From: PVC group bacterium
GTDB taxonomy: Bacteria > Verrucomicrobiota > Kiritimatiellia > CAIKKV01 > CAITUY01
DNA length: 64,000 bases
Reading direction: 5' to 3'
NCBI GenBank assembly: GCA_945870225.1
Contig: CAMBRF010000010.1
Coordinates: forward strand, 20,880 to 84,879
Under the pieces are notes generated by a model. It had not been told where the DNA came from, did not search any database, and saw only the letters and a list, made by a program, of their open reading frames with translations. Both the position numbers and the translations under genes were made by a program. Shown here one piece after another: positions 21,098-31,019 of the stretch (position 1 is its first letter; each line of letters opens with the position of its first letter).

Positions 21098-21842
21098 TCA
21101 GAGCCCGGCCGCCAGACAGATTTTCCCGGCGAGACCCGCCGCACAAAAGGCCGCCACAATGGCACCCAGAACATCCATGGTGTAATGCGCCCGGAGAACA
21201 ATCACCACCATTCCTTCAAGCGCCGCTACAAGGGCGACGGCAATCCCGAGACCGAACGGCAAATAATGGGCGGCCTCGATCGCCCCCAGAACGGCAATGG
21301 CCGTGTGCCCCGAAATGAAAAAATCATTAGCCGTCCCGTAGGTCACCAGAAGGGAAGGGAACCAGGGGTCGAAACCAGATCATCCTGGGCGGGGCCGGCA
21401 GCGCGCATATCACCTGGCACAATTGCCGGAAGGCAAAGAGAAGCAGCAAGGCGAGAAAGGGGCGCAGAGTGGGCCCGAAAATACCTGCCCCGATCAAAAA
21501 CAACCCGAAGAGATCGATGCCGGCCGAACTGGCAACGAGAAGGCCGGAGGCGGCCCGCCGGTGAGTATTCAACCAGGTATTCCACGAGGCCGTGAGGTCA
21601 TGAAGAAGATCGCCGATCTGGCCATCTTTTAAGCCCCGGCTCGCAATGAGCGACTGAGTCCAAAACCAGGCCGCAAGACTCACGCCGATCAGGAGTCCTT
21701 TCAGCATCAACCCCGCCGCCCGGCCGGCTATCCAGGACCCCTCACCCGCCGCCGAATTGGACCAGGCAATCAAGGCCAGGATCCCGACCAGAAGTCCGAG
21801 CATCAGAACCGCCACCAGCCACTTCCATCCCTGCTGCTTCAT
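21098..21842 (-). pseudogene. PAP2_C-type (sphingomyelin-synthase-like) lipid phosphatase/phosphotransferase gene split into two overlapping ORFs (21327..21842 and 21098..21346)
   Basis: Upstream ORF encodes only TM helices and ends '...FRPLVPFPSGDLRDG*'. Downstream ORF (GTG start, +1 frame, 20-nt overlap) carries the catalytic 'FISGHTA' and 'RAHYTMDV' (HxxxD) motifs. Together they make about 250 aa, typical of an intact PAP2_C protein. This could be a frameshift, a sequencing error or a genuine split. Confidence 0.4.
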
Positions 21843-23071
21843 CTTTCAAGAACCTCCCCCGGCTTCACTCCGATCCGGCGCCGGGAGGCCAACCCCACCA
21901 GCATGGCTTCCAACTCGGACCGGATCCGGGCCATGATGGGATCGGTCTCCACGCCCCGCTCACGGATCGGCGAAACCTCAATCGCCTCGCCCACCTCAAT
22001 CACAGCGCGCAGGGGGTGATGCAAGGGGGCCTGATCCGTCAGGTCCTCCTCGAACCGCTCCACCGTCTCCAACAGTCGCTCCGGGGTGGGTTGCGGAGAG
22101 AAGTAGCCCGGTGGGTAGAAAAACAATTGCTGGGCCAGATAGATGTCGGCGAGTTGACGCCAGCGCCGGGCGCGCTCCGCCTCATCAACACTCCCCGCCA
22201 CCAGCTCAGGCAACATCGCGGCCCTGAGGTTCTTGACCCGTGTCACAACATTGTCATTCCTCTTACCCTTGAGCCATTCGATCTCCAGAGGATCCAGCAA
22301 ATGATCAATCAACGCCGTCAACCGTGCCCTCAGGTCTCCTGTTTTCGGCCCTCCGAAGTATTCCATCTCCTTCAACATCAGCAGGGCTTCACCGACCTTG
22401 ACGATCCGTTCCGTCAAACTGAGCGATGACTGCGGCCGCCAGGACAGGCGATGCTCGATTTTTTCCAGGGCGCAAATCAGGGCCTCCTCCAGATTACCCT
22501 CGAAAAAGTACCGGATCGCCGTGGGATGGATGACGACCTTCCCGGTTCCTCCGTCCGCGGCCCGCTGCTTGGCGGCATTACGAGCAATGAACACCGTCCC
22601 ATCCATCAGATGGTTAACGTGGTCGTTGGTTCGCGAAATAACACCTTCCGGAAACAGAACCAGGGGACGTTTCGCCTCCACGAGGATCTGCACGGCGCAT
22701 TTGAGAGCCTCGCGATCCATGCCCTCTCGATACACACTGAAAGCGCCCGCGCGCCGCAGCAACCAGGTCTGGACGGCGGACTGCTTGAAAAGATGCCAGC
22801 TCGCCATGGTATGAAAAGGCGCCCCGACGGCATAGCCGAGATGGGCTAGAACCATCGGATCCGGCGGGCGGCAATGGTTCGGCGTGATCATCACGCCATG
22901 CCCGGCCTTGATGGATTTCTGCAACCGCTCCACGCCAATCAATTCAACCTCCTCGACGCCATGTGTGCGGCGCAGGTAGACCGGCAGGAGGGGTTTCAGC
23001 AACATGGGCCAGAACAGCCCTCGACAGGGGGGAACGAACTCGTACGGCTGATCAATGATAATGTTCTGCAT
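21839..23071 (-). CDS. Lysophospholipid/glycerol-3-phosphate acyltransferase (PlsC/LPLAT family)
   Basis: About 410 aa from ATG at 23071 (track ORF extends to 23209 and would overlap the upstream gene). LPLAT motif I 'ITPNHCRPPD' (NHxxxxD). Motif III 'LFPEG'. Confidence 0.65.
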   Translation of the reverse strand: MQNIIIDQPYEFVPPCRGLFWPMLLKPLLPVYLRRTHGVEEVELIGVERLQKSIKAGHGVMITPNHCRPPDPMVLAHLGYAVGAPFHTMASWHLFKQSAVQTWLLRRAGAFSVYREGMDREALKCAVQILVEAKRPLVLFPEGVISRTNDHVNHLMDGTVFIARNAAKQRAADGGTGKVVIHPTAIRYFFEGNLEEALICALEKIEHRLSWRPQSSLSLTERIVKVGEALLMLKEMEYFGGPKTGDLRARLTALIDHLLDPLEIEWLKGKRNDNVVTRVKNLRAAMLPELVAGSVDEAERARRWRQLADIYLAQQLFFYPPGYFSPQPTPERLLETVERFEEDLTDQAPLHHPLRAVIEVGEAIEVSPIRERGVETDPIMARIRSELEAMLVGLASRRRIGVKPGEVLER

Positions 23072-23091
23072 ACCGCCTCTTCCAAAACCTT

Positions 23092-26000
23092 TTACCTTGT
23101 CAGGGTATACTGTTGGGCCAAGTCCTTCAGGGCTCGCAAATCCAGTTTCCCGCTGCCCAATATAGGCAGGGCCTCGATACGGAAACAGGACTCCCGGCCC
23201 GGTTTCCATAAGTTGGGAATATCGACCGCCTCCACTGTCTGGACAAGGCGAGCAGCATCCCCAGCCTCATCAGTATACAGCAGAACGAGCTTCTCACCTT
23301 TCCGATCATCAGGGACGGACACCACCGCCAGAACCTGGGTGGAGAGGCCCAGTTGCCGGTGCAACGCCTCCTCGATCGCCAGATGCGGCACCATCTCCCC
23401 GCCGATTTTGCTGAACCGGGAAAGGCGGTCGGTGATCGCCACAAACCCCTCCGCATCCATCCGGGCAACATCGCCGGTATTATACCATCCATCCTGCAGC
23501 ACCTCGGCGGTCAGCTCGGGCTTGCCAAGATACCCCAGCATGACGTTCGCCCCCTTTACCTTGAGTAAGCCGGCTTCGCCCACAGGCAGAGAACGCCCGG
23601 TATCGGGGTCCGTCACCTTAACCGCCACTCCCGGCAGGGGCAGCCCGACACAGCCTTCCTTCCAGCCGCGCTGGGCCACGCCTCCCGCCTCGACATGCGG
23701 CAGGCTCAGGGTGGCCACCGGCGACAACTCGGTGGCCCCGTAACCTTCCAGAGGACGGAGACCAAACCGCTCCTCGAAGGCCACAGCGAGACGCTCCTTG
23801 AGTTTTTCCGCCCCCACCACGACATACTTGAGCGAGGCGAAATCCTCTTTCGTCGCCTTGCGCAAATACAGCATGAGAAATGTCGGCGTGGCAAACAACA
23901 TCGTGGAACGGTTGTCTCGCACGAGCTTGGCGATCACGCCGCCATCCAGCGGGTTCGCGTGGTAGGTCGCCGAGAACCCGCTCAACAAGGGAAACCAGAT
24001 GGTCGCCGTATAGCCCAGCGAATGAAAGAAGGGCAACGCCGCACAGACATTGTCCGTGGGCGAAGATCGAAAGACCTGACGCAGGGACTCGATGTTCGAG
24101 ATAATGTTATGGTGGCTCAGCATAACCCCCTTGGGCTCTCCCGTGGAGCCCGAGGAAAAAATGATGGTTGCTGGACGGTCCGCCACAAACCCCGGAACCC
24201 GACCCAGTCGCCGCGCCGGAAGAAATATCGCCTTCAGAAAAGCCTTTCGCTTAGCCCCCGCCGTCAGGGCGGCCAGCAACTCCTCGATATAGATCGTCCC
24301 GACCGGTAACGCCACCGGGCCGATTTTTTCCAGAAACAGTTTTGAGGTGATGACCGTTTTTAGATCGCACTGCTGCACCGCAGACCGGAATGAGTCTGCG
24401 GAGGCGGTGAAGTTCAGGTTCACGGTTGTCTTGCCCAATAATGTAACCGCTATATTGGAAAGGGCCCCGCCCACGGAGGCCGGCAGCAGGATCCCCACCC
24501 GCTCCTGACCTGCCGTAAGGGTGCGGAGTTTATCGGCCAATGCCAGTGACCCGCAAAGCAGTTTGCCGTAGGTCAGCCGCTTCCCGGCGGCATCGGTCAT
24601 GGCAAGTTGGTCCCAATTGGCATGGGCGGATTTTGCAAACATCTCGCCGAGGGGGCGTCGCGCCGGTTTACGGTCCTGATAATACTCGCAGGAAAGTTCC
24701 ATGACGGCCTGACGAACCTCATGGACCGGCGTGGTCGGAGGCAAAGCCTGACCGAACAGAATGGTGACAGGGTATCGCAGCAAGGCGGACCGGCGCCGAA
24801 CAAGCTGGCCCTGGTAATAGCTGGTGATCGCCCCCCAGGCACCTCCGATGTAGACGGGAATGATGGGATAATCCGTCTCCTTCACCAAATAGGCAAACCC
24901 GCGCCGAAACTCGCGGAGATTGCCCGTGCGGGTCAGGGTCCCCTCGGCAAACACGCAGACCATGTACCCCTTGGCCAGAGCGGCGCGCACGGCATCCAGT
25001 GATTGCGCCAATTGTTTAGGCGAGGCCTTGGCATCCACCGGCAGACAACCCATAAGGTTGAACGCCCAGGCCAACCTGGGCCAGCGTGTGTAGAGGGAGG
25101 ATTCCACAATGAACCTCAGCCGCCGTTGCTGGGTCGCCACCAGAAGGAGGGCATCGAGATGGGAAACATGGTTGCAGACCAGAACCGCAGCCCCATCGAT
25201 CGGCACGTTGGCACTACCCAGGATTCGAATCCGATACGCCAGCCGTGTCACCACCAGCAGCACGAACCGCAACAGAAAATCAGGCAACACCCTCAGCGTG
25301 ACCACCAGGAGAACCAGGGTCAGCCCGGCCATCAACAGGAATCCCGTTGCCGCCGACCAGCCGAGTTTGACGGTGAGCAGTACCAGTGCCGAGGCCACGA
25401 GCGCACCAACCCAACTGAGAAAACTGGCGGCGGCAAGAATTTCGCCCCGCTGTTGCTGCGGGGCCTGCGACTGGATGAAGGAATCCACCGGCACAATGAA
25501 CAACCCGGCCCCCATTCCCGCCACCAGCACGGCGGGCCCGGCGTACACCACCGATGGCGGCAGCCACTTCAGAGCCAAGGCACCCAAGGCCAGAATGGTC
25601 GCCCCGAGGGGGACAATCCCGAACTCGATATTACGTCCGGACAATTTACCCGACAGGAACGCACCGGCCGCGATCCCTATCGAGGCTAGAAAGAAAAGGT
25701 AGCCGCTTTGCGCTTCGGTCAACCCCATCCGCTGCATGCCAAAAGGGATCAGGTTCAACTGCATGTAGGCGCCCAGCATGGTGAAATAGGCTGAAGCTAG
25801 AACGGCCTGAATCAGATAGCGATCCCTGCGGATGGACCACAGGGTGCGCCAGATATCCCGCAGGAACAGAGGCGTAATCTTCTGTTCCGATCCAGCGGGC
25901 GGAGTACGCCCGATCATGGTAGCGGCAACCAATCCCACCACCGCCGTGGCGACGCAAAGGCTTTGAGCCAGGGTGTAATTCGATTTCGTAACCCCGATCA

Positions 26001-26490
26001 GGAACGGGGCCACGGCAGAACCGAGCACCACGGCCAGGAAGGTGGCCATGACCAGCAGGCTGTTGGCCTTGGATAACTGGTCGCGACCGACCAGCTCCGG
26101 TACAATGCCGTACTTGGAAGGACTGAACAGGGCGCTGTGGGTTCCAATCAGGAAAAGGACGGCATAGAGGCCCCATTCACACCGGAAGAAGAAGGCGGCC
26201 ACCGCCCCCGCCATGGCCGCGACTTCCAGCACCTTGCAAAACACCAGGATATTGCGCTTGCTGAAACGGTCGGCCAGAACACCAGCCGCCGCGGAGAAAA
26301 GCAGAAACGGCGCAATAAACACCATCGCGGCCATCGCGGAAATGGTCGCCGCCGAGTCCGCCCCGCGCAAGTGAATCATAAAGAGGATCGCCAGCACCTT
26401 GAACACGTTGTCGTTCAGCGCCCCGCAAAATTGCGAAATATTGAGCGAGACAAATCCGCGGGATAGCGGCACAACGGGCGTTTCATTCAT
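23092..26490 (-). CDS. Tripartite fusion: MFS lysophospholipid transporter (LplT-like) + PlsC acyltransferase + acyl-ACP synthetase (Aas-like)
   Basis: 1132 aa. N-terminal 12-TM MFS domain ('SRGFVSLNISQFCGALNDNVFKV', 'GVLADRF'). Central 'VLVCNHVSHLDAL' (HxxxxD) and 'FAEGTLTRTG' acyltransferase motifs. C-terminal AMP-binding 'IIFSSGSTGEPKGVMLSHHN', 'GYGATE', 'GDVARMDAEGF'. Confidence 0.8.
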   Translation of the reverse strand: MNETPVVPLSRGFVSLNISQFCGALNDNVFKVLAILFMIHLRGADSAATISAMAAMVFIAPFLLFSAAAGVLADRFSKRNILVFCKVLEVAAMAGAVAAFFFRCEWGLYAVLFLIGTHSALFSPSKYGIVPELVGRDQLSKANSLLVMATFLAVVLGSAVAPFLIGVTKSNYTLAQSLCVATAVVGLVAATMIGRTPPAGSEQKITPLFLRDIWRTLWSIRRDRYLIQAVLASAYFTMLGAYMQLNLIPFGMQRMGLTEAQSGYLFFLASIGIAAGAFLSGKLSGRNIEFGIVPLGATILALGALALKWLPPSVVYAGPAVLVAGMGAGLFIVPVDSFIQSQAPQQQRGEILAAASFLSWVGALVASALVLLTVKLGWSAATGFLLMAGLTLVLLVVTLRVLPDFLLRFVLLVVTRLAYRIRILGSANVPIDGAAVLVCNHVSHLDALLLVATQQRRLRFIVESSLYTRWPRLAWAFNLMGCLPVDAKASPKQLAQSLDAVRAALAKGYMVCVFAEGTLTRTGNLREFRRGFAYLVKETDYPIIPVYIGGAWGAITSYYQGQLVRRRSALLRYPVTILFGQALPPTTPVHEVRQAVMELSCEYYQDRKPARRPLGEMFAKSAHANWDQLAMTDAAGKRLTYGKLLCGSLALADKLRTLTAGQERVGILLPASVGGALSNIAVTLLGKTTVNLNFTASADSFRSAVQQCDLKTVITSKLFLEKIGPVALPVGTIYIEELLAALTAGAKRKAFLKAIFLPARRLGRVPGFVADRPATIIFSSGSTGEPKGVMLSHHNIISNIESLRQVFRSSPTDNVCAALPFFHSLGYTATIWFPLLSGFSATYHANPLDGGVIAKLVRDNRSTMLFATPTFLMLYLRKATKEDFASLKYVVVGAEKLKERLAVAFEERFGLRPLEGYGATELSPVATLSLPHVEAGGVAQRGWKEGCVGLPLPGVAVKVTDPDTGRSLPVGEAGLLKVKGANVMLGYLGKPELTAEVLQDGWYNTGDVARMDAEGFVAITDRLSRFSKIGGEMVPHLAIEEALHRQLGLSTQVLAVVSVPDDRKGEKLVLLYTDEAGDAARLVQTVEAVDIPNLWKPGRESCFRIEALPILGSGKLDLRALKDLAQQYTLTR

Positions 26491-26525
26491 AGTCGTCGAT
26501 TTCTCCGGTCTGGGACACCCCGCTC

Positions 26526-27758
26526 TCAGTTGTTCCGCAGCCAGTTTCCAATTCTACCGCACACCTGATCACGGATCGTGAAGAAGAGAAAATGAGTCTG
26601 CCCTTCATAGAATTGGGATTCAAGAGGAATCCCCAGTCGCCTAATCGATTGTTCCGCCTCCTTAATGTAGTCGACAGGAATACGGTTGTCGGCGGTTCCA
26701 TGGAGGAGCAGGATCGGTTTGTCCTTCCACGCGGAGACGAACGGCGCGGTTAGGAGTTCCTCCGGTTCCAACACGGGTGAGATGAATATCAGTCCCCGGT
26801 AGGCATTCGGCGCGCGCCGCGCCCCGATACAGACGCCCCGGCCTCCGTTCGACAGACCCGCGAGATAGATACGCGACGCGTCCATCTGGGGATGCAGGGA
26901 ACAATACCGGCGCACCTGTTCAATCGCATCCCCACCCCCTGATTCATCCCAGTTCCCTGCTCCAAAGGTGGGCGCCACTATCGCAAACCCGTATTCGTCG
27001 GCCAAGCGTTTCCACACCCATAGATAGCCCCGGAAATTACCCAAGCTGCCATGTAGGAATATCACAACGGGCAGCCGTCGCGACGCAGGCGCATCCGGTA
27101 TGTACTCATAAAAATGCCCCACCGCCGCATGCCTCAGGAAGAGATCCTGATAAGTCTGGTTCAAGACGGACCCAAGACACTCGAATTTGGGAGAACATCG
27201 CATCTCGCCGTAGACGGCGAGGATCTGGGCCCGAAGTTCCATCGTGTTACGCTCATCCATCAACCGGTCCATCGTCGGAATGACGTAGGAGGCCAATACA
27301 AGCTGGTCCATTTCCGGAACCAGATTAGCCATGGACGATCTCTGATACGCCGTCGTCCCTGTAAAGCACGAACGCACCTCCGCCCCCTTCATAGGGAGCC
27401 CCTCCGGTGTGAGGTAGTAATCGATTCCCAGCAGAAGGACAGCAGTCATGCCTGACGCCAGAGCCACCGTCAGGATGCCGCGCTTTCGCCTGAGATACGA
27501 TGCAATCCAAAACATAACGGGCGCAGGACAACCAAGGATGACTGCCATAGCAAAAAGCCGTCCCTGGCAGGTTTCGGCGTGAGCCAGAAGCAATCCCGCC
27601 AGAATGTAGATGGGAACCAGGAAGATGATATAAAGCGTCATCGTCACAGAGACAACAAATCTAAGAACGAAACGCGTCTTCGCCATCCCAGCCTGATTCA
27701 GCCCGCTCCTGAGAGAGACGCCGCCGCGGGAAACAGGCACAACGGGCGTTTCATTCAT
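26526..27758 (-). CDS. Membrane-anchored alpha/beta-hydrolase (esterase/lysophospholipase-like)
   Basis: 410 aa. 3-4 N-terminal TM helices. C-terminal alpha/beta hydrolase fold with 'VVIFLHGSLGN' (oxyanion region), nucleophile elbow 'GLSNGG', and 'LLLHGTADNRIP' (Asp/His region). The first 16 residues are nearly identical to those of the downstream fusion gene. Confidence 0.7.
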   Translation of the reverse strand: MNETPVVPVSRGGVSLRSGLNQAGMAKTRFVLRFVVSVTMTLYIIFLVPIYILAGLLLAHAETCQGRLFAMAVILGCPAPVMFWIASYLRRKRGILTVALASGMTAVLLLGIDYYLTPEGLPMKGAEVRSCFTGTTAYQRSSMANLVPEMDQLVLASYVIPTMDRLMDERNTMELRAQILAVYGEMRCSPKFECLGSVLNQTYQDLFLRHAAVGHFYEYIPDAPASRRLPVVIFLHGSLGNFRGYLWVWKRLADEYGFAIVAPTFGAGNWDESGGGDAIEQVRRYCSLHPQMDASRIYLAGLSNGGRGVCIGARRAPNAYRGLIFISPVLEPEELLTAPFVSAWKDKPILLLHGTADNRIPVDYIKEAEQSIRRLGIPLESQFYEGQTHFLFFTIRDQVCGRIGNWLRNN

Positions 27759-27799
27759 GAGCGTGTCTTCCTGATTGAGATTGGCGCTGAGCCAGCGCT

Positions 27800-28924
27800 T
27801 TACTTCGTCTCGCGCGCCAGAATGTCAGCAACAATCGCGGCGGCGGCGTTGGGGCGGCCCATGCGCTTTGCCCGGTTCCCCATCTGATCCAGACGGTCAC
27901 GATCCTCCAACAGGGACTTGACCTTGAAATACGCATCTTCCACCTCAAACAACCGCGCGGCGGCCCCGGCCTCCAGAACTGTCTCGCAGTTCCGCTGCTC
28001 CTGACCGGGAATCGGATTGATCACCAGCATCGGACGGCCCTTGGCAAGAACCTCGGAGGTCGTCAGTCCGCCCGGCTTGGAGATCACCAGATCACAGGCA
28101 TCCATCATCACATGAATGTTGGAGACAAACCCGTGGACCACCACCGGGGTGCGGATGGTCGCCGCCAGCGCCTCGGCTTCCTGTTTCATCTTCTCGTTCG
28201 CGCCGGCAACCACAACCAGACGGCAAACGGGAGTCTCCTGCCCGAAGGCACGGATGAGATCCAGCGTCGGCCCCACGCCGAACCCTCCGCTTAATAGCAG
28301 CACAACCGGCAGATCGGACGGAAGACCAAGCGCCTTCATCGCGTCGGCTTTCGATTGCCCCTGCTGAAACACCGGATCAATCGGAATACCTGTCACCACC
28401 ACCCGGTCAGCCGGCTGCCCGCGCCGGACCAGATGCCGCCGGGCCTCCTCCATCGCCACATAGTAGGTGTCGGTATTCTCCAGGATCCAAAGGGAATGGA
28501 CGGCAAAGTCGGTGACCGCGCAATACACCCGGGCCTGCCGGCGCCGGCGCCGTGACGCGCGGGTCAGGAGTTGCAGCGGCATGAAATGCGTACAGACCGC
28601 AATATCCGGATCGAACTCCTTATAAAACTTCAGAAACGAAAGCGTGTTCATCTTGTTGAAAACGGCCCGGATTTCCTTTCTCCACGGAACATCCGCCTTG
28701 CGATCAGCCTCGGAATAGAGGTAGCCCCACAACTCCGGCGCCTTGCGGACCAGATCGAGATAGCCTTCCGAATACGTTTTCCTGAAAATCCCGGCAGTAT
28801 AGTCGAGGATATCGCAGACCTTGACCTCCGCCTCCGGCCGTGCCTGAAGAAACGCCTTGGCCAGGGCTTCCGCCGCCCGCCGATGTCCCGCACCCGCCGA
28901 GGCATGCAACAAGAGAATTTTCAT
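27800..28924 (-). CDS. MGDG-synthase/UgtP-like diacylglycerol glycosyltransferase (GT28)
   Basis: About 374 aa from ATG at 28924 (track ORF extends to 28960). N-terminal 'MKILLLHASAGAGHRRAAEAL' matches the MGDG_synth/UgtP signature. C-terminal GT-B domain 'VVLLLSGGFGVG...GRPMLVINPIPGQE'. Confidence 0.7.
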   Translation of the reverse strand: MKILLLHASAGAGHRRAAEALAKAFLQARPEAEVKVCDILDYTAGIFRKTYSEGYLDLVRKAPELWGYLYSEADRKADVPWRKEIRAVFNKMNTLSFLKFYKEFDPDIAVCTHFMPLQLLTRASRRRRRQARVYCAVTDFAVHSLWILENTDTYYVAMEEARRHLVRRGQPADRVVVTGIPIDPVFQQGQSKADAMKALGLPSDLPVVLLLSGGFGVGPTLDLIRAFGQETPVCRLVVVAGANEKMKQEAEALAATIRTPVVVHGFVSNIHVMMDACDLVISKPGGLTTSEVLAKGRPMLVINPIPGQEQRNCETVLEAGAAARLFEVEDAYFKVKSLLEDRDRLDQMGNRAKRMGRPNAAAAIVADILARETK

Positions 28925-29421
28925 GCCGTCTCCTTTTTCAGGGTGCTCCGATACGACCACCCGATCAGCACCACCCCGGCGGCAAGGGACAGGATATAAT
29001 CAACCGGAACACCCAGCATCCAATGCTTGTGCCAGGGAATAAACTCGGGCGCAAACTTCCCGAACCCGAAGGCGGGATTAAAAAGGAACCATAAAAAGTC
29101 CTCGATGATCCAGAACACCATCACCGACCCGATGATGCGGACCTCATGCCGCCAGGAGAACAGTCCGGTTATGAACAGCGGTAGGTGAAACACGAGCGCC
29201 ATGAAAGCAAATACCCAGACATGGTAGCCGGTAATGGTCTTCCCGCCCCAGAACAGGTTCAACCAGGAGTTGTCGAGCCGCCAGGTCGGAAGGTTGGCCG
29301 CCCACCCCGCTCCACCCTCAATCTGAATCTCCACCGTGGCGAACACCGCGCCCAACAAGGTCACCCACAACAACAGCAACGCCGCCTGAACCCCGGGCGC
29401 GATTTGACGCGCGCCGGTCAT
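28921..29421 (-). CDS. Hypothetical integral membrane protein (4 TM helices), translationally coupled to the glycosyltransferase
   Basis: About 166 aa from ATG at 29421 (track ORF extends to 29502, overlapping the upstream gene). Trp/Phe-rich TM segments. Stop overlaps the GT28 start (ATGA). No family recognised. Confidence 0.4.
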   Translation of the reverse strand: MTGARQIAPGVQAALLLLWVTLLGAVFATVEIQIEGGAGWAANLPTWRLDNSWLNLFWGGKTITGYHVWVFAFMALVFHLPLFITGLFSWRHEVRIIGSVMVFWIIEDFLWFLFNPAFGFGKFAPEFIPWHKHWMLGVPVDYILSLAAGVVLIGWSYRSTLKKETA

Positions 29422-31019
29422 ATCGCGGGCCCCGCCTCCGGCTTGACGTCGGGCTTGACGGTCACCTCGGCAGGGGCATGACCCTGTGTCACCACATGCC
29501 ATTTCGGGCGCCGCCAGCTCTTCCTGAACTCATCAAGGGATCCCTCGCTGGCGATCCTGGTCTTCTCCTGTCCGTCAAGGAACAGGACCAGATCATACTG
29601 CTGATCCGCCGTGCCATAGGTCGCGTCGAATTGATGAACCAACTCATTGGCCGGGGTGGCAGGCCGCCCAAGAATACTCAGGATTGGAAAGGTCAACCCG
29701 CGCGAGTCGGGACATACCTGATAGGACTTATACACCAACTCCGTACAGACAATGGCCGAGTCGGTCGTAAAATCAAAATTGTAATCATAGGGCCGCCCGA
29801 CATAGTGGAACGAGCGGAACAGCGCCACGGCCCGTTCTTTCTTGGTCAGGCGCGGACGTAGGGCGCACAGGCTGTCCGCCGCGCCGGAATGTTCCAGCGT
29901 GGTAAACAGGACCCCCTCCCCGATGGCTTCCAGGATGCGGGGGACATGACCCTCCTCCAGCACCGCCGTGCATTGCGCATAGGCCGCAGGGTATTTCGAT
30001 TTCAGCAGCGCGTCAAAGTCGCCGTCCTCCTGGCCCTGCGCCATGACCCAGGTCCGGGTGTCGGGATCGTTAAAAAACTCCTTACGATCCGCAGGGGTCC
30101 CCACATAGAGCACCGCATGGGGCCAGAAGCCCGGCAGACCGACATTCGACATGTACCATTCGCGACGCTCAAGCAGGACATCACCGGGAAGGAGTTTCTT
30201 GGCCGCCACGGCAAGTTGCTCCAGGGTAATAAGGCCTCCTTTCCAGCGCCACACCTTTGTATCGCCCATCCAGATCGAGACTCCTTTTTGGACGGGGAAC
30301 CAGGCCAGGCTGCCGCCCTTGCGCACCAACTCAAGCGCGTTATCGGCGGTCAGAAGCGAATCCTGGATGCGTCCCTTGGCGAGGACGGCGACATCCTGAT
30401 CAATGTTCACACTGCTCCGATCAGGTTTCTTGAACGTGGTCACCCAGATAGACTTGAAGGCCAGATATTCCGCCTTGCGCGCCACGTTGAGGACCAGGAA
30501 CTCAAACCGGCTGTAGGTCCCCTTTTCCAAACCGAGTTCCGGAACGGAATCGTTCAGCAGCACCTCCAGCCCGGGATCGTTCTCCACGAGTTTTACGAAA
30601 TCGAGCGAAAACCGGTATTGCGCCAGGAAAGCGGCGTAGGCGACAAGGAACGACTCGTCACGAACCTGACGGTCGACAATGAGAAAGGTTTTGCTGTGGG
30701 CACGCCGGACGGAATCCATGGCGATTGAGTAGTCGAGAAATGTCTTCCATGCGGTCCAGACTTCCTCACGTTGCTCCCGGGTCATCAGGCGGGCTTTCGT
30801 GGGCCGGCTCGTCGGGAACAAATCGGGCCGGGACTTCGCGAAACTAACGACCTGCTCCAGGCCGGCGCGATACTGCTGCACGGCCGCCATATCGGCCTTG
30901 ATCCGGGCGCGCCGGTCATCCGCAGGCTCCTCGGCTCCCCTCACCACTCCAACCAGGAGCGAACCCCACACCAGCGCCACGCCAACAACCCGTCCCAGCC
31001 CGGTCCGTTTCCTGATCAT
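29418..31019 (-). CDS. Secreted YiiX/YaeF-type permuted-papain-fold (NlpC/P60 superfamily, C92-like) protein
   Basis: 533 aa. Signal peptide. C-terminal 'HYVGRPYDYNFDFTTDSAIVCTELVYKSY' matches the YiiX signature (catalytic Cys in a 'C(S/T)ELV' context after a 'YDxxFDF' block). The long N-terminal region has no recognisable family. Confidence 0.5.
   Translation of the reverse strand: MIRKRTGLGRVVGVALVWGSLLVGVVRGAEEPADDRRARIKADMAAVQQYRAGLEQVVSFAKSRPDLFPTSRPTKARLMTREQREEVWTAWKTFLDYSIAMDSVRRAHSKTFLIVDRQVRDESFLVAYAAFLAQYRFSLDFVKLVENDPGLEVLLNDSVPELGLEKGTYSRFEFLVLNVARKAEYLAFKSIWVTTFKKPDRSSVNIDQDVAVLAKGRIQDSLLTADNALELVRKGGSLAWFPVQKGVSIWMGDTKVWRWKGGLITLEQLAVAAKKLLPGDVLLERREWYMSNVGLPGFWPHAVLYVGTPADRKEFFNDPDTRTWVMAQGQEDGDFDALLKSKYPAAYAQCTAVLEEGHVPRILEAIGEGVLFTTLEHSGAADSLCALRPRLTKKERAVALFRSFHYVGRPYDYNFDFTTDSAIVCTELVYKSYQVCPDSRGLTFPILSILGRPATPANELVHQFDATYGTADQQYDLVLFLDGQEKTRIASEGSLDEFRKSWRRPKWHVVTQGHAPAEVTVKPDVKPEAGPAI

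What the first reader, a model, noticed from the sequence alone, without database searches (positions are those of the whole stretch)
26443..27758. Two adjacent, differently-functioning genes begin with the same 16 codons (MNETPVVP[L/V]SRG[F/G]VSL)
The alpha/beta-hydrolase gene (start 27758) and the downstream MFS-acyltransferase-ligase fusion gene (start 26490) share a 35-nt stretch at their 5' ends with only 3 mismatches (26456..26490 vs 27724..27758), about 48 nt at roughly 80%. The upstream non-coding regions are unrelated. In the fusion protein this segment is the genuine start of the MFS domain. In the hydrolase it is an add-on before the first TM helix, and there is an internal ATG at codon 25, 'MAKTRF'. 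This implies either capture or duplication of a translation-initiation region plus N-terminal membrane-targeting leader, or gene conversion maintaining a shared 5' coding-region regulatory element (for example an sRNA or ribosome standby site).
Basis: seen in the sequence. Interest (0 to 1): 0.6.

Follow-up and report, generated by a model that had tools for sequence, protein, structure and literature searches.

The report
Copied gene start on inserted esterase
In this one bacterial lineage, a 49-base copy of the first 16 codons of a lipid-recycling gene (an lplT-aas fusion) sits in frame at the front of a neighbouring esterase gene that is itself a lineage-specific insertion; it is a real but ordinary scar of genome rearrangement, not a shared control element or targeting signal.

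Summary
A 49-nt direct repeat (41/49 identical, the first 23 nt from the ATG exact) opens both the hydrolase ORF (26526-27758, -) and the MFS-acyltransferase-ligase ORF (23092-26490, -). The sequence upstream of the two ATGs is unrelated.

The copy went from the fusion gene to the hydrolase. Every fusion-gene orthologue examined carries this N-terminus natively. All 17 close hydrolase orthologues lack it, and 12 of them start exactly where the window protein has Leu20-Asn21 (CTG AAT, versus ATG AAT in an orthologue).

The hydrolase is a lineage-specific insertion. One relative has glycosyltransferase-96 nt-fusion gene with nothing in between, other relatives carry toxin-antitoxin genes at that site, and hydrolase GC3 is 0.65 against 0.71-0.75 for its neighbours.

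The add-on is 57 nt, which is 19 in-frame codons: the 49-nt copy plus an 8-nt filler that repeats the bases just after the hydrolase stop codon. I read it as a templated, microhomology-mediated insertion at a shared ATGAAT start. It most likely now supplies the hydrolase's start codon.

The leader is hydrophilic and so is not a targeting signal. It is not conserved at nucleotide level among orthologues, which argues against a regulatory element. Why the first 23 nt have stayed identical is unexplained. Interest is low to moderate.

The parts
27710..27758 (-). R': the derived copy of the first 49 nt (16 codons plus 1 nt) of the fusion gene. It now forms codons 1-16 of the hydrolase ORF.
   Evidence: Absent from 17 hydrolase orthologues. 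Polarised against L002, this copy carries 6 of the 8 differences: 4 synonymous, plus Phe13 to Gly.
26442..26490 (-). R: the original 5' end of the lplT-aas-type fusion gene (MNETPVVPLSRGFVSL).
   Evidence: The N-terminus is native in orthologues. The 30 nt upstream are orthologous to the upstream region of the 90%-identical relative L021 (anchored alignment p=0.001).
27702..27709 (-). 8-nt filler GGAGCGGG between R' and the native hydrolase sequence. With the copy's final A it reads AGGAG, a Shine-Dalgarno-like motif 4 nt before CTG20.
   Evidence: GAGCGGGCTG at 27699-27708 repeats GAGCGGGGTG at 26516-26525. 49 + 8 = 57 nt, which is 19 codons in frame.
27699..27701 (-). Codon 20, CTG (Leu): the position of the native hydrolase start codon.
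   Evidence: In alignment A2, 12 of 17 orthologues begin with Met in this column, 8 of them Met-Asn. L001 DNA reads ATG AAT AAA GGA GGG ATC against window CTG AAT CAG GCT GGG ATG.
27684..27686 (-). Codon 25, ATG (MAKTRF): an alternative downstream start candidate.
   Evidence: Most orthologues have Ile in this column. No Shine-Dalgarno-like motif lies at working distance (read from the sequence).
26516..26525 (-). GAGCGGGGTG immediately after the hydrolase stop codon; the second copy of the 10-nt repeat that brackets the native hydrolase ORF.
   Evidence: 5 matches on both strands of the 64-kb window (128 kb of sequence), 1.3 expected. L001 has AGGCGGG at the same place after its stop codon.
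26526..27758 (-). Membrane-anchored alpha/beta-hydrolase (esterase/lipase type) ORF, 410 aa; a lineage-specific insertion.
   Evidence: Pfam Peptidase_S9, Abhydrolase_2, DLH and Esterase_PHB above their gathering scores. G-L-S303-N-G, D357 and H389 are invariant. Hydrophobic segments lie within about residues 28-116. GC3 is 0.647 against 0.705-0.749 for neighbours. No hydrolase lies next to the fusion gene in any relative.
23092..26490 (-). LplT-Aas-type fusion gene (MFS + PlsC acyltransferase + acyl-ACP synthetase), 1132 aa.
   Evidence: NCBIfam NF006386 scores 1354 bits against a cut-off of 1221. Pfam MFS_1, Acyltransferase and AMP-binding.
27759..27799 (-). 41-nt spacer between the glycosyltransferase gene and the hydrolase ATG1; contains AGGAAG (27767-27772) 8 nt before ATG1.
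   Evidence: Shine-Dalgarno-like motifs at similar spacing occur before many genes of the window. Weak similarity to the L016 GT-FUS spacer (p about 0.05).
26491..26525 (-). 35-nt spacer between the hydrolase stop codon and the fusion-gene ATG; its last 30 nt are the ancestral fusion-gene upstream region.
   Evidence: Anchored alignment to L021, p=0.001.
27800..28960 (-). MGDG-synthase-like glycosyltransferase, the ancestral upstream neighbour of the fusion gene.
   Evidence: Pfam and NCBIfam hits. L024 has GT-96 nt-fusion gene; L002 has GT, then a 2.4-kb insert, then the fusion gene.

Best explanation
This is a lineage-specific rearrangement scar that created a chimeric gene start.

Shown: the ancestral operon was C92-like amidase, small membrane protein, glycolipid glycosyltransferase, lplT-aas fusion, PlsC-like acyltransferase, PAP2_C-like protein. 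In the window's lineage, a membrane-anchored esterase gene with different codon composition sits in the glycosyltransferase-fusion spacer, a spot that holds different cargo in different relatives. In front of the esterase's native first codons lies a 57-nt in-frame patch. It consists of 49 nt copied from the first 16 codons of the fusion gene 1.27 kb downstream, plus an 8-nt filler whose last 7 nt (GAGCGGG) equal the 7 nt that directly follow the esterase stop codon.

Inferred: both genes natively begin ATG AAT, and the patch is bracketed by ATGAAT and CTGAAT. I therefore propose that a replication or repair template switch primed on this microhomology copied the two nearby stretches into the esterase start. 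Only an in-frame outcome would have survived. The esterase's original ATG now reads CTG. Translation therefore most likely begins at the copied ATG, which has AGGAAG 8 nt upstream, and gives the esterase a 19-residue hydrophilic cytoplasmic extension with no function of its own.

The confidence figure is for the whole statement. Taken separately: origin and direction of the copy about 0.85; start at ATG1 about 0.6; template-switch mechanism about 0.35.
For: The repeat is real and occurs only twice.

Direction of copying: the fusion-gene N-terminus is native in more than 40 orthologues, and one fragment (P0245) carries exactly the inferred ancestral peptide MNETPVVPVSRGFVSL. Seventeen hydrolase orthologues lack it. 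Twelve of them start at the column of Leu20, eight of those with Met-Asn, and DNA homology to L001 runs up to (C/A)TG AAT.

Insertion: L024 keeps GT-96 nt-fusion gene. L002 and L021 have toxin-antitoxin genes there. Hydrolase orthologues lie in unrelated contexts. GC3 is 0.647 against 0.705-0.749 for neighbours. None of 16 other fusion-gene loci has a second copy of its own 5' end.

The F copy is in situ: its upstream 30 nt align to L021 (p=0.001).

The filler repeat GAGCGGGSTG lies exactly before codon 21 and exactly after the stop codon.

Frame and start: 57 nt is 19 codons. Shine-Dalgarno-like motifs are used in this genome. Four of the 6 nucleotide changes in the copy are synonymous (p = 0.06-0.08).
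Against: No pre-event allele was found; the closest relatives are only about 90% identical. The order of events and the template-switch mechanism are therefore inferred from junction sequences of 6-10 nt.

The differences between the copies are non-uniform: 0 in 23 nt, then 8 in 26 nt (P=0.0035). Simple decay of one duplication does not predict that.

ATG1 of the hydrolase is predicted to sit in a hairpin (-27.2 kcal/mol for 76 nt, not significant against shuffles), whereas the fusion-gene start is unusually open (z=+1.9). This does not favour efficient initiation at ATG1.

An AGGAG 4 nt before CTG20, and the ATG at codon 25, are alternative starts.

The excess of synonymous changes is not significant.
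Confidence: 0.55

Rival explanations
1. Dead relic. The origin is the same (the fusion gene's 5' end was copied when the hydrolase arrived), but the copy is not translated into functional hydrolase. The enzyme starts at ATG25 (MAKTRF) or at CTG20 using the AGGAG just upstream. On this reading R' is a decaying pseudo-start that happens still to be open and in frame.
For: Orthologue N-termini vary in length, and several start at or after the column of residue 25 (P0017, P0006, P0020, P0005), so a protein starting at Met25 would be complete. ATG1 is predicted to be base-paired. AGGAG lies 4 nt before CTG20, and AGGAG-type sites are used in this genome. The excess of synonymous changes is not significant (p = 0.06-0.08).
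Against: The native ATG is lost, and CTG is a poor initiator (general knowledge). ATG25 has no Shine-Dalgarno-like motif at working distance. The copy has no indel, stop or frameshift and keeps 15 of 16 ancestral residues, with 4 synonymous changes. ATG1 has AGGAAG at 8-nt spacing. The first 23 nt show no decay at all.
Confidence: 0.3
2. Shared control element. The identical 23 nt (ATG plus 7 codons) are kept identical by selection or short-tract gene conversion because they form a common post-transcriptional control site. That site could be an sRNA target, a ribosome standby or enhancer sequence, or a tuned initiation region, and it would coordinate the esterase with the lysophospholipid-recycling enzyme.
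For: There are 0 differences in nt 1-23 against 8 in nt 24-49 (P=0.0035). Fusion-gene orthologues differ from the window fusion gene mostly within nt 1-23. The two genes are plausibly functionally linked: an esterase/lipase next to LplT-Aas in a lipid operon (PMC11416262).
Against: The 23 nt are not conserved among fusion-gene orthologues; each differs at 3-9 positions, several of them synonymous. No Rfam family reaches its threshold. The two start regions fold very differently, open versus hairpin. There is no homology upstream of the ATG, where standby sites or sRNA sites usually extend. The arrangement occurs in a single lineage only. A conversion tract would lack homology on its 5' side.
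Confidence: 0.08
3. Insertion with a long target duplication. The hydrolase cassette landed inside the fusion gene at nt +49, and the first 49 nt were duplicated so that the fusion gene stayed intact. On this reading R' is the original copy and R the new one.
For: The architecture U-R'-insert-R-gene is what a duplicated target would give. The GT-proximal spacer resembles the L016 spacer weakly (p about 0.05).
Against: The 30 nt just upstream of R, not those upstream of R', are orthologous to the fusion-gene upstream region of L021 (p=0.001 against 0.05). A target duplication that starts exactly at the ATG would be a coincidence. There is no transposase, and no terminal inverted repeats lie at the borders. 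49 nt is far longer than the target duplications made by insertion sequences (general knowledge).
Confidence: 0.06
4. Chance similarity or an assembly artefact.
For: The contig comes from a metagenome-assembled genome. A 23-nt exact repeat is close to small assembler k-mer sizes.
Against: The 23-mer was never seen in 100 shuffles. The in-register identity continues for 18 of the next 26 nt. The two copies differ at 8 positions and have unique flanks, which an assembler cannot invent. The copy is in frame with a complete, orthologue-supported hydrolase.
Confidence: 0.01

Closest known systems
LplT-Aas lysophospholipid transport and re-acylation system, single-ORF fused form (NCBIfam NF006386 / PRK08633, acyl-[ACP]--phospholipid O-acyltransferase)
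   Same: The downstream gene has MFS (LplT-like), PlsC acyltransferase and AMP-binding (acyl-ACP synthetase) domains in one 1132-aa ORF and scores above the equivalog cut-off. Fused lplT-aas ORFs are mentioned as existing, but uncharacterised, in PMC11416262.
   Different: Nothing about the enzyme itself is unusual. The only oddity is that its first 49 nt have a second copy 1.27 kb upstream.
Chimeric ORFs and N-terminal extensions created by partial gene duplication or capture of an upstream start codon
   Same: A short 5' piece of one gene is fused in frame to a different gene; the original start codon is lost and an upstream ATG takes over.
   Different: The piece is only 16 codons and carries no domain, signal peptide or transmembrane segment. 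The donor is the immediately adjacent gene, and the copy begins exactly at the ATG.
Templated insertions by microhomology-mediated template switching (FoSTeS/MMBIR-type events; short-range template switches, e.g. PMC7954356, PMC5120786)
   Same: An inserted patch is built from two stretches copied from nearby sequence. There are 5-6 nt of microhomology ((A/C)TGAAT) at both borders, and the mismatches are clustered towards one junction.
   Different: The event is inferred from a single present-day sequence. No parental allele is available, and the cited descriptions concern great-ape and human genomes.
Target-site duplications of insertion sequences and transposons
   Same: Direct repeats flank an inserted gene.
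   Different: The repeat is 49 nt and diverged. There is no transposase and no terminal inverted repeats. The upstream copy, not the downstream one, appears to be the new one.
Regulatory sites in the 5' coding region (sRNA targets, ribosome standby or enhancer sequences)
   Same: Two co-oriented, probably co-transcribed genes share an identical stretch that spans the start codon and the first codons.
   Different: There is no nucleotide conservation in orthologues, no known RNA family, different predicted structures, and the arrangement occurs in one lineage only.

Membership tests
LplT-Aas fused acyl-[ACP]--phospholipid O-acyltransferase (NF006386) | Full-length match above the curated equivalog cut-off | tested here: met
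   1354 bits against a cut-off of 1221; residues 10-1128 cover profile positions 8-1144 of 1147.
LplT-Aas fused acyl-[ACP]--phospholipid O-acyltransferase (NF006386) | MFS + PlsC-type acyltransferase + AMP-binding domains in this order | tested here: met
   Pfam MFS_1 at residues 18-366, Acyltransferase at 420-548, AMP-binding at 619-988.
LplT-Aas fused acyl-[ACP]--phospholipid O-acyltransferase (NF006386) | Lysophospholipid flipping and re-acylation activity | not testable with these tools
   Requires biochemistry. Fused homologues are uncharacterised according to PMC11416262.
Alpha/beta-hydrolase fold esterase/lipase (Pfam Peptidase_S9, Abhydrolase_2, DLH clan) | Domain match above the gathering threshold | tested here: met
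   Peptidase_S9 30.1 bits (threshold 22.6), Abhydrolase_2 29.6 (23), DLH 28.5 (21), Esterase_PHB 24.4 (23).
Alpha/beta-hydrolase fold esterase/lipase (Pfam Peptidase_S9, Abhydrolase_2, DLH clan) | Nucleophile elbow G-x-S-x-G plus conserved Asp and His | tested here: met
   G301-L-S303-N304-G305, D357 and H389 are invariant in 18 sequences. Their assignment as the catalytic triad is inferred from this conservation.
Signal peptide or membrane-targeting leader | Hydrophobic core (or transmembrane segment) within the shared 16 residues | tested here: not met
   Mean Kyte-Doolittle hydropathy of residues 1-16 is 0.29 (hydrolase) and 0.47 (fusion). The first 19-residue window scoring at least 1.6 starts at residue 28 (hydrolase) and 46 (fusion).
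Conserved cis-regulatory RNA element in the 5' coding region | Match to a described RNA family | tested here: not met
   Rfam E-value scan of 26300-27950 gave only ROSE_3 at 20.4 bits (gathering score 43), located inside the coding region away from the repeat.
Conserved cis-regulatory RNA element in the 5' coding region | Nucleotide-level conservation of the element in orthologues | tested here: not met
   Seven fusion-gene orthologues at 86-90% protein identity differ at 3-9 of the 23 nt, including synonymous sites.
Conserved cis-regulatory RNA element in the 5' coding region | A common secondary structure or accessibility at both copies | tested here: not met
   The fusion-gene start folds at -11.2 kcal/mol (z=+1.9, open); the hydrolase start folds at -27.2 kcal/mol with the ATG paired.
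Transposon or insertion-sequence insertion with target-site duplication | Transposase gene and terminal inverted repeats at the borders; short (2-14 bp) exact duplication | tested here: not met
   The hydrolase is the only long ORF with protein-family or orthologue support between the copies. No inverted repeat lies at the borders. The repeat is 49 nt and 84% identical.
Integron gene cassette | attC recombination site (at least about 57 nt, imperfect palindrome) 3' of the ORF | tested here: not met
   Only 35 nt separate the stop codon from the next ATG, and 30 of them are ancestral fusion-gene upstream sequence. No dedicated attC model was run.
Non-allelic gene conversion between paralogous segments | Identity tract embedded in diverged but homologous sequence on both sides | tested here: inconclusive
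   On the 3' side homology continues (18/26). On the 5' side there is no detectable homology. The 0/23 versus 8/26 pattern (P=0.0035) is compatible with conversion but does not prove it.
Templated insertion by microhomology-mediated template switching | Inserted sequence copied from nearby template(s) | tested here: met
   49 nt equal the fusion-gene nt 1-49, 1268 nt downstream. The 7-10-nt filler equals the sequence just after the hydrolase stop codon.
Templated insertion by microhomology-mediated template switching | Microhomology at the junctions | tested here: met
   The patch is bracketed by ATGAAT and CTGAAT. The native hydrolase start ATG AAT is inferred from L001 DNA and from 8 orthologues that start Met-Asn.
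Templated insertion by microhomology-mediated template switching | A parental allele without the patch | not testable with these tools
   No relative closer than about 90% protein identity was found in the collections.

The most novel reading that the evidence does not exclude
The 23 identical nucleotides (start codon plus seven codons) are actively kept identical, by selection or by recurrent short conversion. On this reading they are a portable translation-initiation or post-transcriptional control module that puts a newly acquired membrane esterase under the same control as the LplT-Aas lysophospholipid-recycling enzyme. That would be a natural example of an operon newcomer being wired in by copying its neighbour's start region.
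Probability: 0.07. Interest if true: 0.55.

Novelty: new member of a known kind. Interest (0 to 1): 0.25.

Why it matters
It is a clean, datable small example of how a newly inserted gene can acquire a new start codon and N-terminus from its neighbour. The donor, the recipient, the lost native start and the junction microhomologies are all readable.

It also has practical value for annotation. The 410-aa hydrolase model carries 19 residues that no orthologue has, and the true start needs experimental confirmation.

It marks the site upstream of lplT-aas as an insertion hot spot in this Verrucomicrobiota-like group.

It does not reveal a new regulatory or targeting mechanism.

Tried and rejected
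- **Searching the protein database for other proteins with the leader.** A 40-aa query returned 'no candidate' even though the hydrolase itself (P0001) is in the database, so this negative result is uninformative.
- **Looking up the window's own contig via P0001.** It is not on record, so the rest of the 148-kb contig and genome could not be scanned for the 23-mer.
- **Looking for a closer relative or pre-insertion allele.** Genome and metagenome scans and the 90% cluster gave nothing closer than about 90% identity.
- **Assigning the two spacers to the ancestral GT-fusion spacer.** Spacers evolve too fast for this; even L016 against L024 is not significant. Only the 30 nt upstream of the fusion-gene ATG could be matched, to L021.
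- **Promoter and terminator scan.** No promoter-like site was found, and the terminator-like sites were at the level seen in shuffles.
- **Rfam.** Nothing reached threshold.
- **Reading AGGAG before CTG20 as the hydrolase's relic ribosome-binding site.** The L001 upstream sequence does not support it. The filler is better explained as a copy of the sequence after the stop codon.
- **The resemblance of the leader's SRGGVSL to orthologue N-termini such as NRGGIFL.** I rejected this as coincidence. By my own count on the sequences, the DNA matches the fusion gene at 17 of 24 positions and L001 at only 9 of 24.
- **Test for protein-level selection on the leader.** Suggestive only (p = 0.06-0.08).
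Full report
**1.
On the minus strand, the hydrolase ORF (26526-27758, 410 aa) and the MFS-acyltransferase-ligase ORF (23092-26490, 1132 aa) both open with ATGAATGAAACGCCCGTTGTGCC.
- The repeat finder returns a single 49-nt family, 26442-26490 versus 27710-27758, at 41/49 identical.
- The 23-mer occurs twice in the window even with three mismatches allowed; 0 matches were expected in shuffles. It is absent from the 24 related loci fetched.
- The eight differences lie at ORF nt 24, 25, 27, 36-39 and 45.
- Upstream of the two ATGs there is no detectable similarity.
- Because the two copies differ and have unique flanks, this is not an assembly artefact.

**2. The genes.**
- The downstream gene is a fused LplT-Aas-type enzyme. 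It scores 1354 bits on NCBIfam NF006386 (cut-off 1221) and has MFS_1, PlsC-type acyltransferase and AMP-binding domains. The two-protein LplT/Aas system, and the existence of uncharacterised fused forms, are described in PMC11416262.
- The upstream gene is an alpha/beta-hydrolase with hydrophobic, probably membrane-spanning segments within about residues 28-116. G-L-S303-N-G, D357 and H389 are invariant.
- The neighbours are an MGDG-synthase-like glycosyltransferase, a YiiX/C92-like protein and a PlsC-like acyltransferase, plus a protein whose orthologues in relatives match PAP2_C. This looks like a membrane-lipid remodelling operon; that reading is an inference.

**3. Direction of the copy.**
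- All fusion-gene orthologues retrieved carry the segment natively. This covers 17 loci with N-terminal DNA from genome and metagenome scans, plus about 40 protein N-termini. Examples are MNETPIAPVSRGFVSLNISQFCG (90% identity), MNETPVVPVSRSFFF and MSETPAVPVSRGF. One cluster member (P0245) has exactly the inferred ancestral peptide MNETPVVPVSRGFVSL.
- None of the 17 closest hydrolase orthologues (57-71% identity) has the segment. Twelve begin precisely at the alignment column of window Leu20, eight of those with Met-Asn where the window has Leu-Asn.
- At DNA level, orthologue L001 reads ATG AAT AAA GGA GGG ATC against window CTG AAT CAG GCT GGG ATG.
- So the leader came from the fusion gene, and the hydrolase's native start codon is now CTG.

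**4. The hydrolase is a lineage-specific insertion at a variable spot.**
- In L024 (87% identity) the operon is uninterrupted: C92, small protein, GT, 96 nt, fusion gene, acyltransferase, PAP2_C.
- L016 has a GT 3' end 82 nt before the fusion gene.
- L002 has 2.4 kb of PIN-type toxin-antitoxin genes between GT and the fusion gene. L021 has a ParE pair there. L022 and L015 have ThuA and an amidohydrolase.
- No relative has a hydrolase at this site, and hydrolase orthologues sit in unrelated contexts.
- Hydrolase GC3 is 0.647, against 0.705-0.749 for nine neighbouring genes.
- No other locus carries a second copy of its own fusion-gene 5' end.

**5. Anatomy of the junctions.**
- The add-on is 57 nt, which is 19 codons in frame: the 49-nt copy, then GGAGCGGG, then CTG AAT.
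- GAGCGGGCTG (27699-27708) recurs as GAGCGGGGTG (26516-26525) immediately after the hydrolase stop codon. The pattern has only 5 matches on both strands of the window.
- L001 has AGGCGGG at the same place after its stop codon. The downstream copy is therefore probably the hydrolase's own 3' flank.
- The 30 nt before the fusion-gene ATG are orthologous to those of L021 (p=0.001). The sequence before the hydrolase ATG1 is at best marginally similar (p about 0.05). The downstream repeat copy is therefore in situ and the upstream one is new.
- Both genes natively start ATG AAT, and the patch is bracketed by ATGAAT and CTGAAT.
- My reading, which is an inference, is a microhomology-primed template switch that copied two nearby stretches into the hydrolase start. 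This would explain why the homology begins exactly at the ATG. The in-frame length is explained by survival of functional outcomes only.

**6. Which start is used (unresolved).**
- For ATG1: AGGAAG lies 8 nt upstream, in a genome that uses such motifs. The native ATG is lost. The copy has no indel or stop. Four of its six changes, polarised with L002, are synonymous (p = 0.06-0.08).
- Against ATG1: it is predicted to be paired in a hairpin (-27.2 kcal/mol, z=-0.85), whereas the fusion-gene start is unusually open (-11.2 kcal/mol, z=+1.9). AGGAG precedes CTG20 by 4 nt. Met25 would still give a protein as long as several orthologues.

**7. What it is not.**
- The 16 residues are hydrophilic and precede the first hydrophobic segment in both proteins.
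- In the fusion family the first 12 residues are the variable tail, and conservation starts at Phe13. Phe13 is Phe in all 39 orthologue N-termini printed, yet it is Gly in the hydrolase copy. So this is neither a targeting signal nor a conserved functional peptide.
- The nucleotide sequence is not conserved among orthologues. No RNA family reaches its threshold, and no promoter-like site was found.

**8. Unexplained.**
- All eight differences lie in nt 24-49 and none in nt 1-23 (P=0.0035). They are clustered: GCTA to TGTT, ATTT to CGGC, and one single change. Orthologues, by contrast, differ from the window fusion gene mostly in nt 1-23.
- Possible causes are error-prone synthesis near the distal junction, a short conversion tract, or constraint on the initiation region. 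None could be tested here. This pattern is the only support for the regulatory reading, which I put at about 0.07-0.08.

**9. Verdict.**
The repeat is real and statistically secure, and its origin and direction are resolved. It is a lineage-specific scar that made a chimeric gene start: a new example of a known kind of event, of modest interest.

Noticed in passing
window 26491-27799; L002 3574-6000; L021 2575-3126; L022 2966-5000; L024 4905-5000: The site directly upstream of the lplT-aas fusion gene is a synteny break that holds different cargo in close relatives. L024 has nothing (GT-96 nt-fusion gene), L002 has PIN-type toxin-antitoxin genes, L021 has a ParE pair, L022 has ThuA plus an amidohydrolase, and the window has the esterase.
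   Followed up: partly
L016 1-230: An element of about 166 nt that looks like a MITE. It has inverted ends (AATGGCACTTACTTAAGCC ... GGTGCTTAAGTAAGCGCCATT) and is flanked by a 14-nt direct repeat, CGACTATAGAGCTG. It sits next to a truncated 3' end of the glycosyltransferase gene.
   Followed up: no
window 26526-27758: Hydrolase GC3 is 0.647, against 0.705-0.749 in nine surrounding genes. This is consistent with relatively recent foreign origin.
   Followed up: partly
window 26432-26507 (minus strand): The fusion gene's start region is predicted to be exceptionally unstructured: -11.2 kcal/mol, and all 200 shuffles fold at least as well. This is typical of a well-exposed initiation site. The hydrolase copy of the same start sits in a hairpin of -27.2 kcal/mol.
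   Followed up: partly
window 23092-23209: The longest ORF of the PlsC-like acyltransferase (21839-23209) overlaps the 3' end of the fusion gene by 118 nt. In most relatives homology begins around residue 44-47. The real start is therefore probably Met47 (near 23071), about 20 nt after the fusion-gene stop codon.
   Followed up: no
window 27636-27692 (minus strand): A weak sub-threshold Rfam hit to the ROSE_3 thermoregulator (20.4 bits against a gathering score of 43, E=0.24) inside the hydrolase coding region. Most likely chance.
   Followed up: no
window 28921-29502 and 21327-21842: Two small conserved membrane proteins of the operon. The 193-aa one has no family match. The orthologues of the 171-aa one are 254 aa long and hit PAP2_C / AtPDCT1_2 in relatives, so the window ORF may be called too short at its start.
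   Followed up: no
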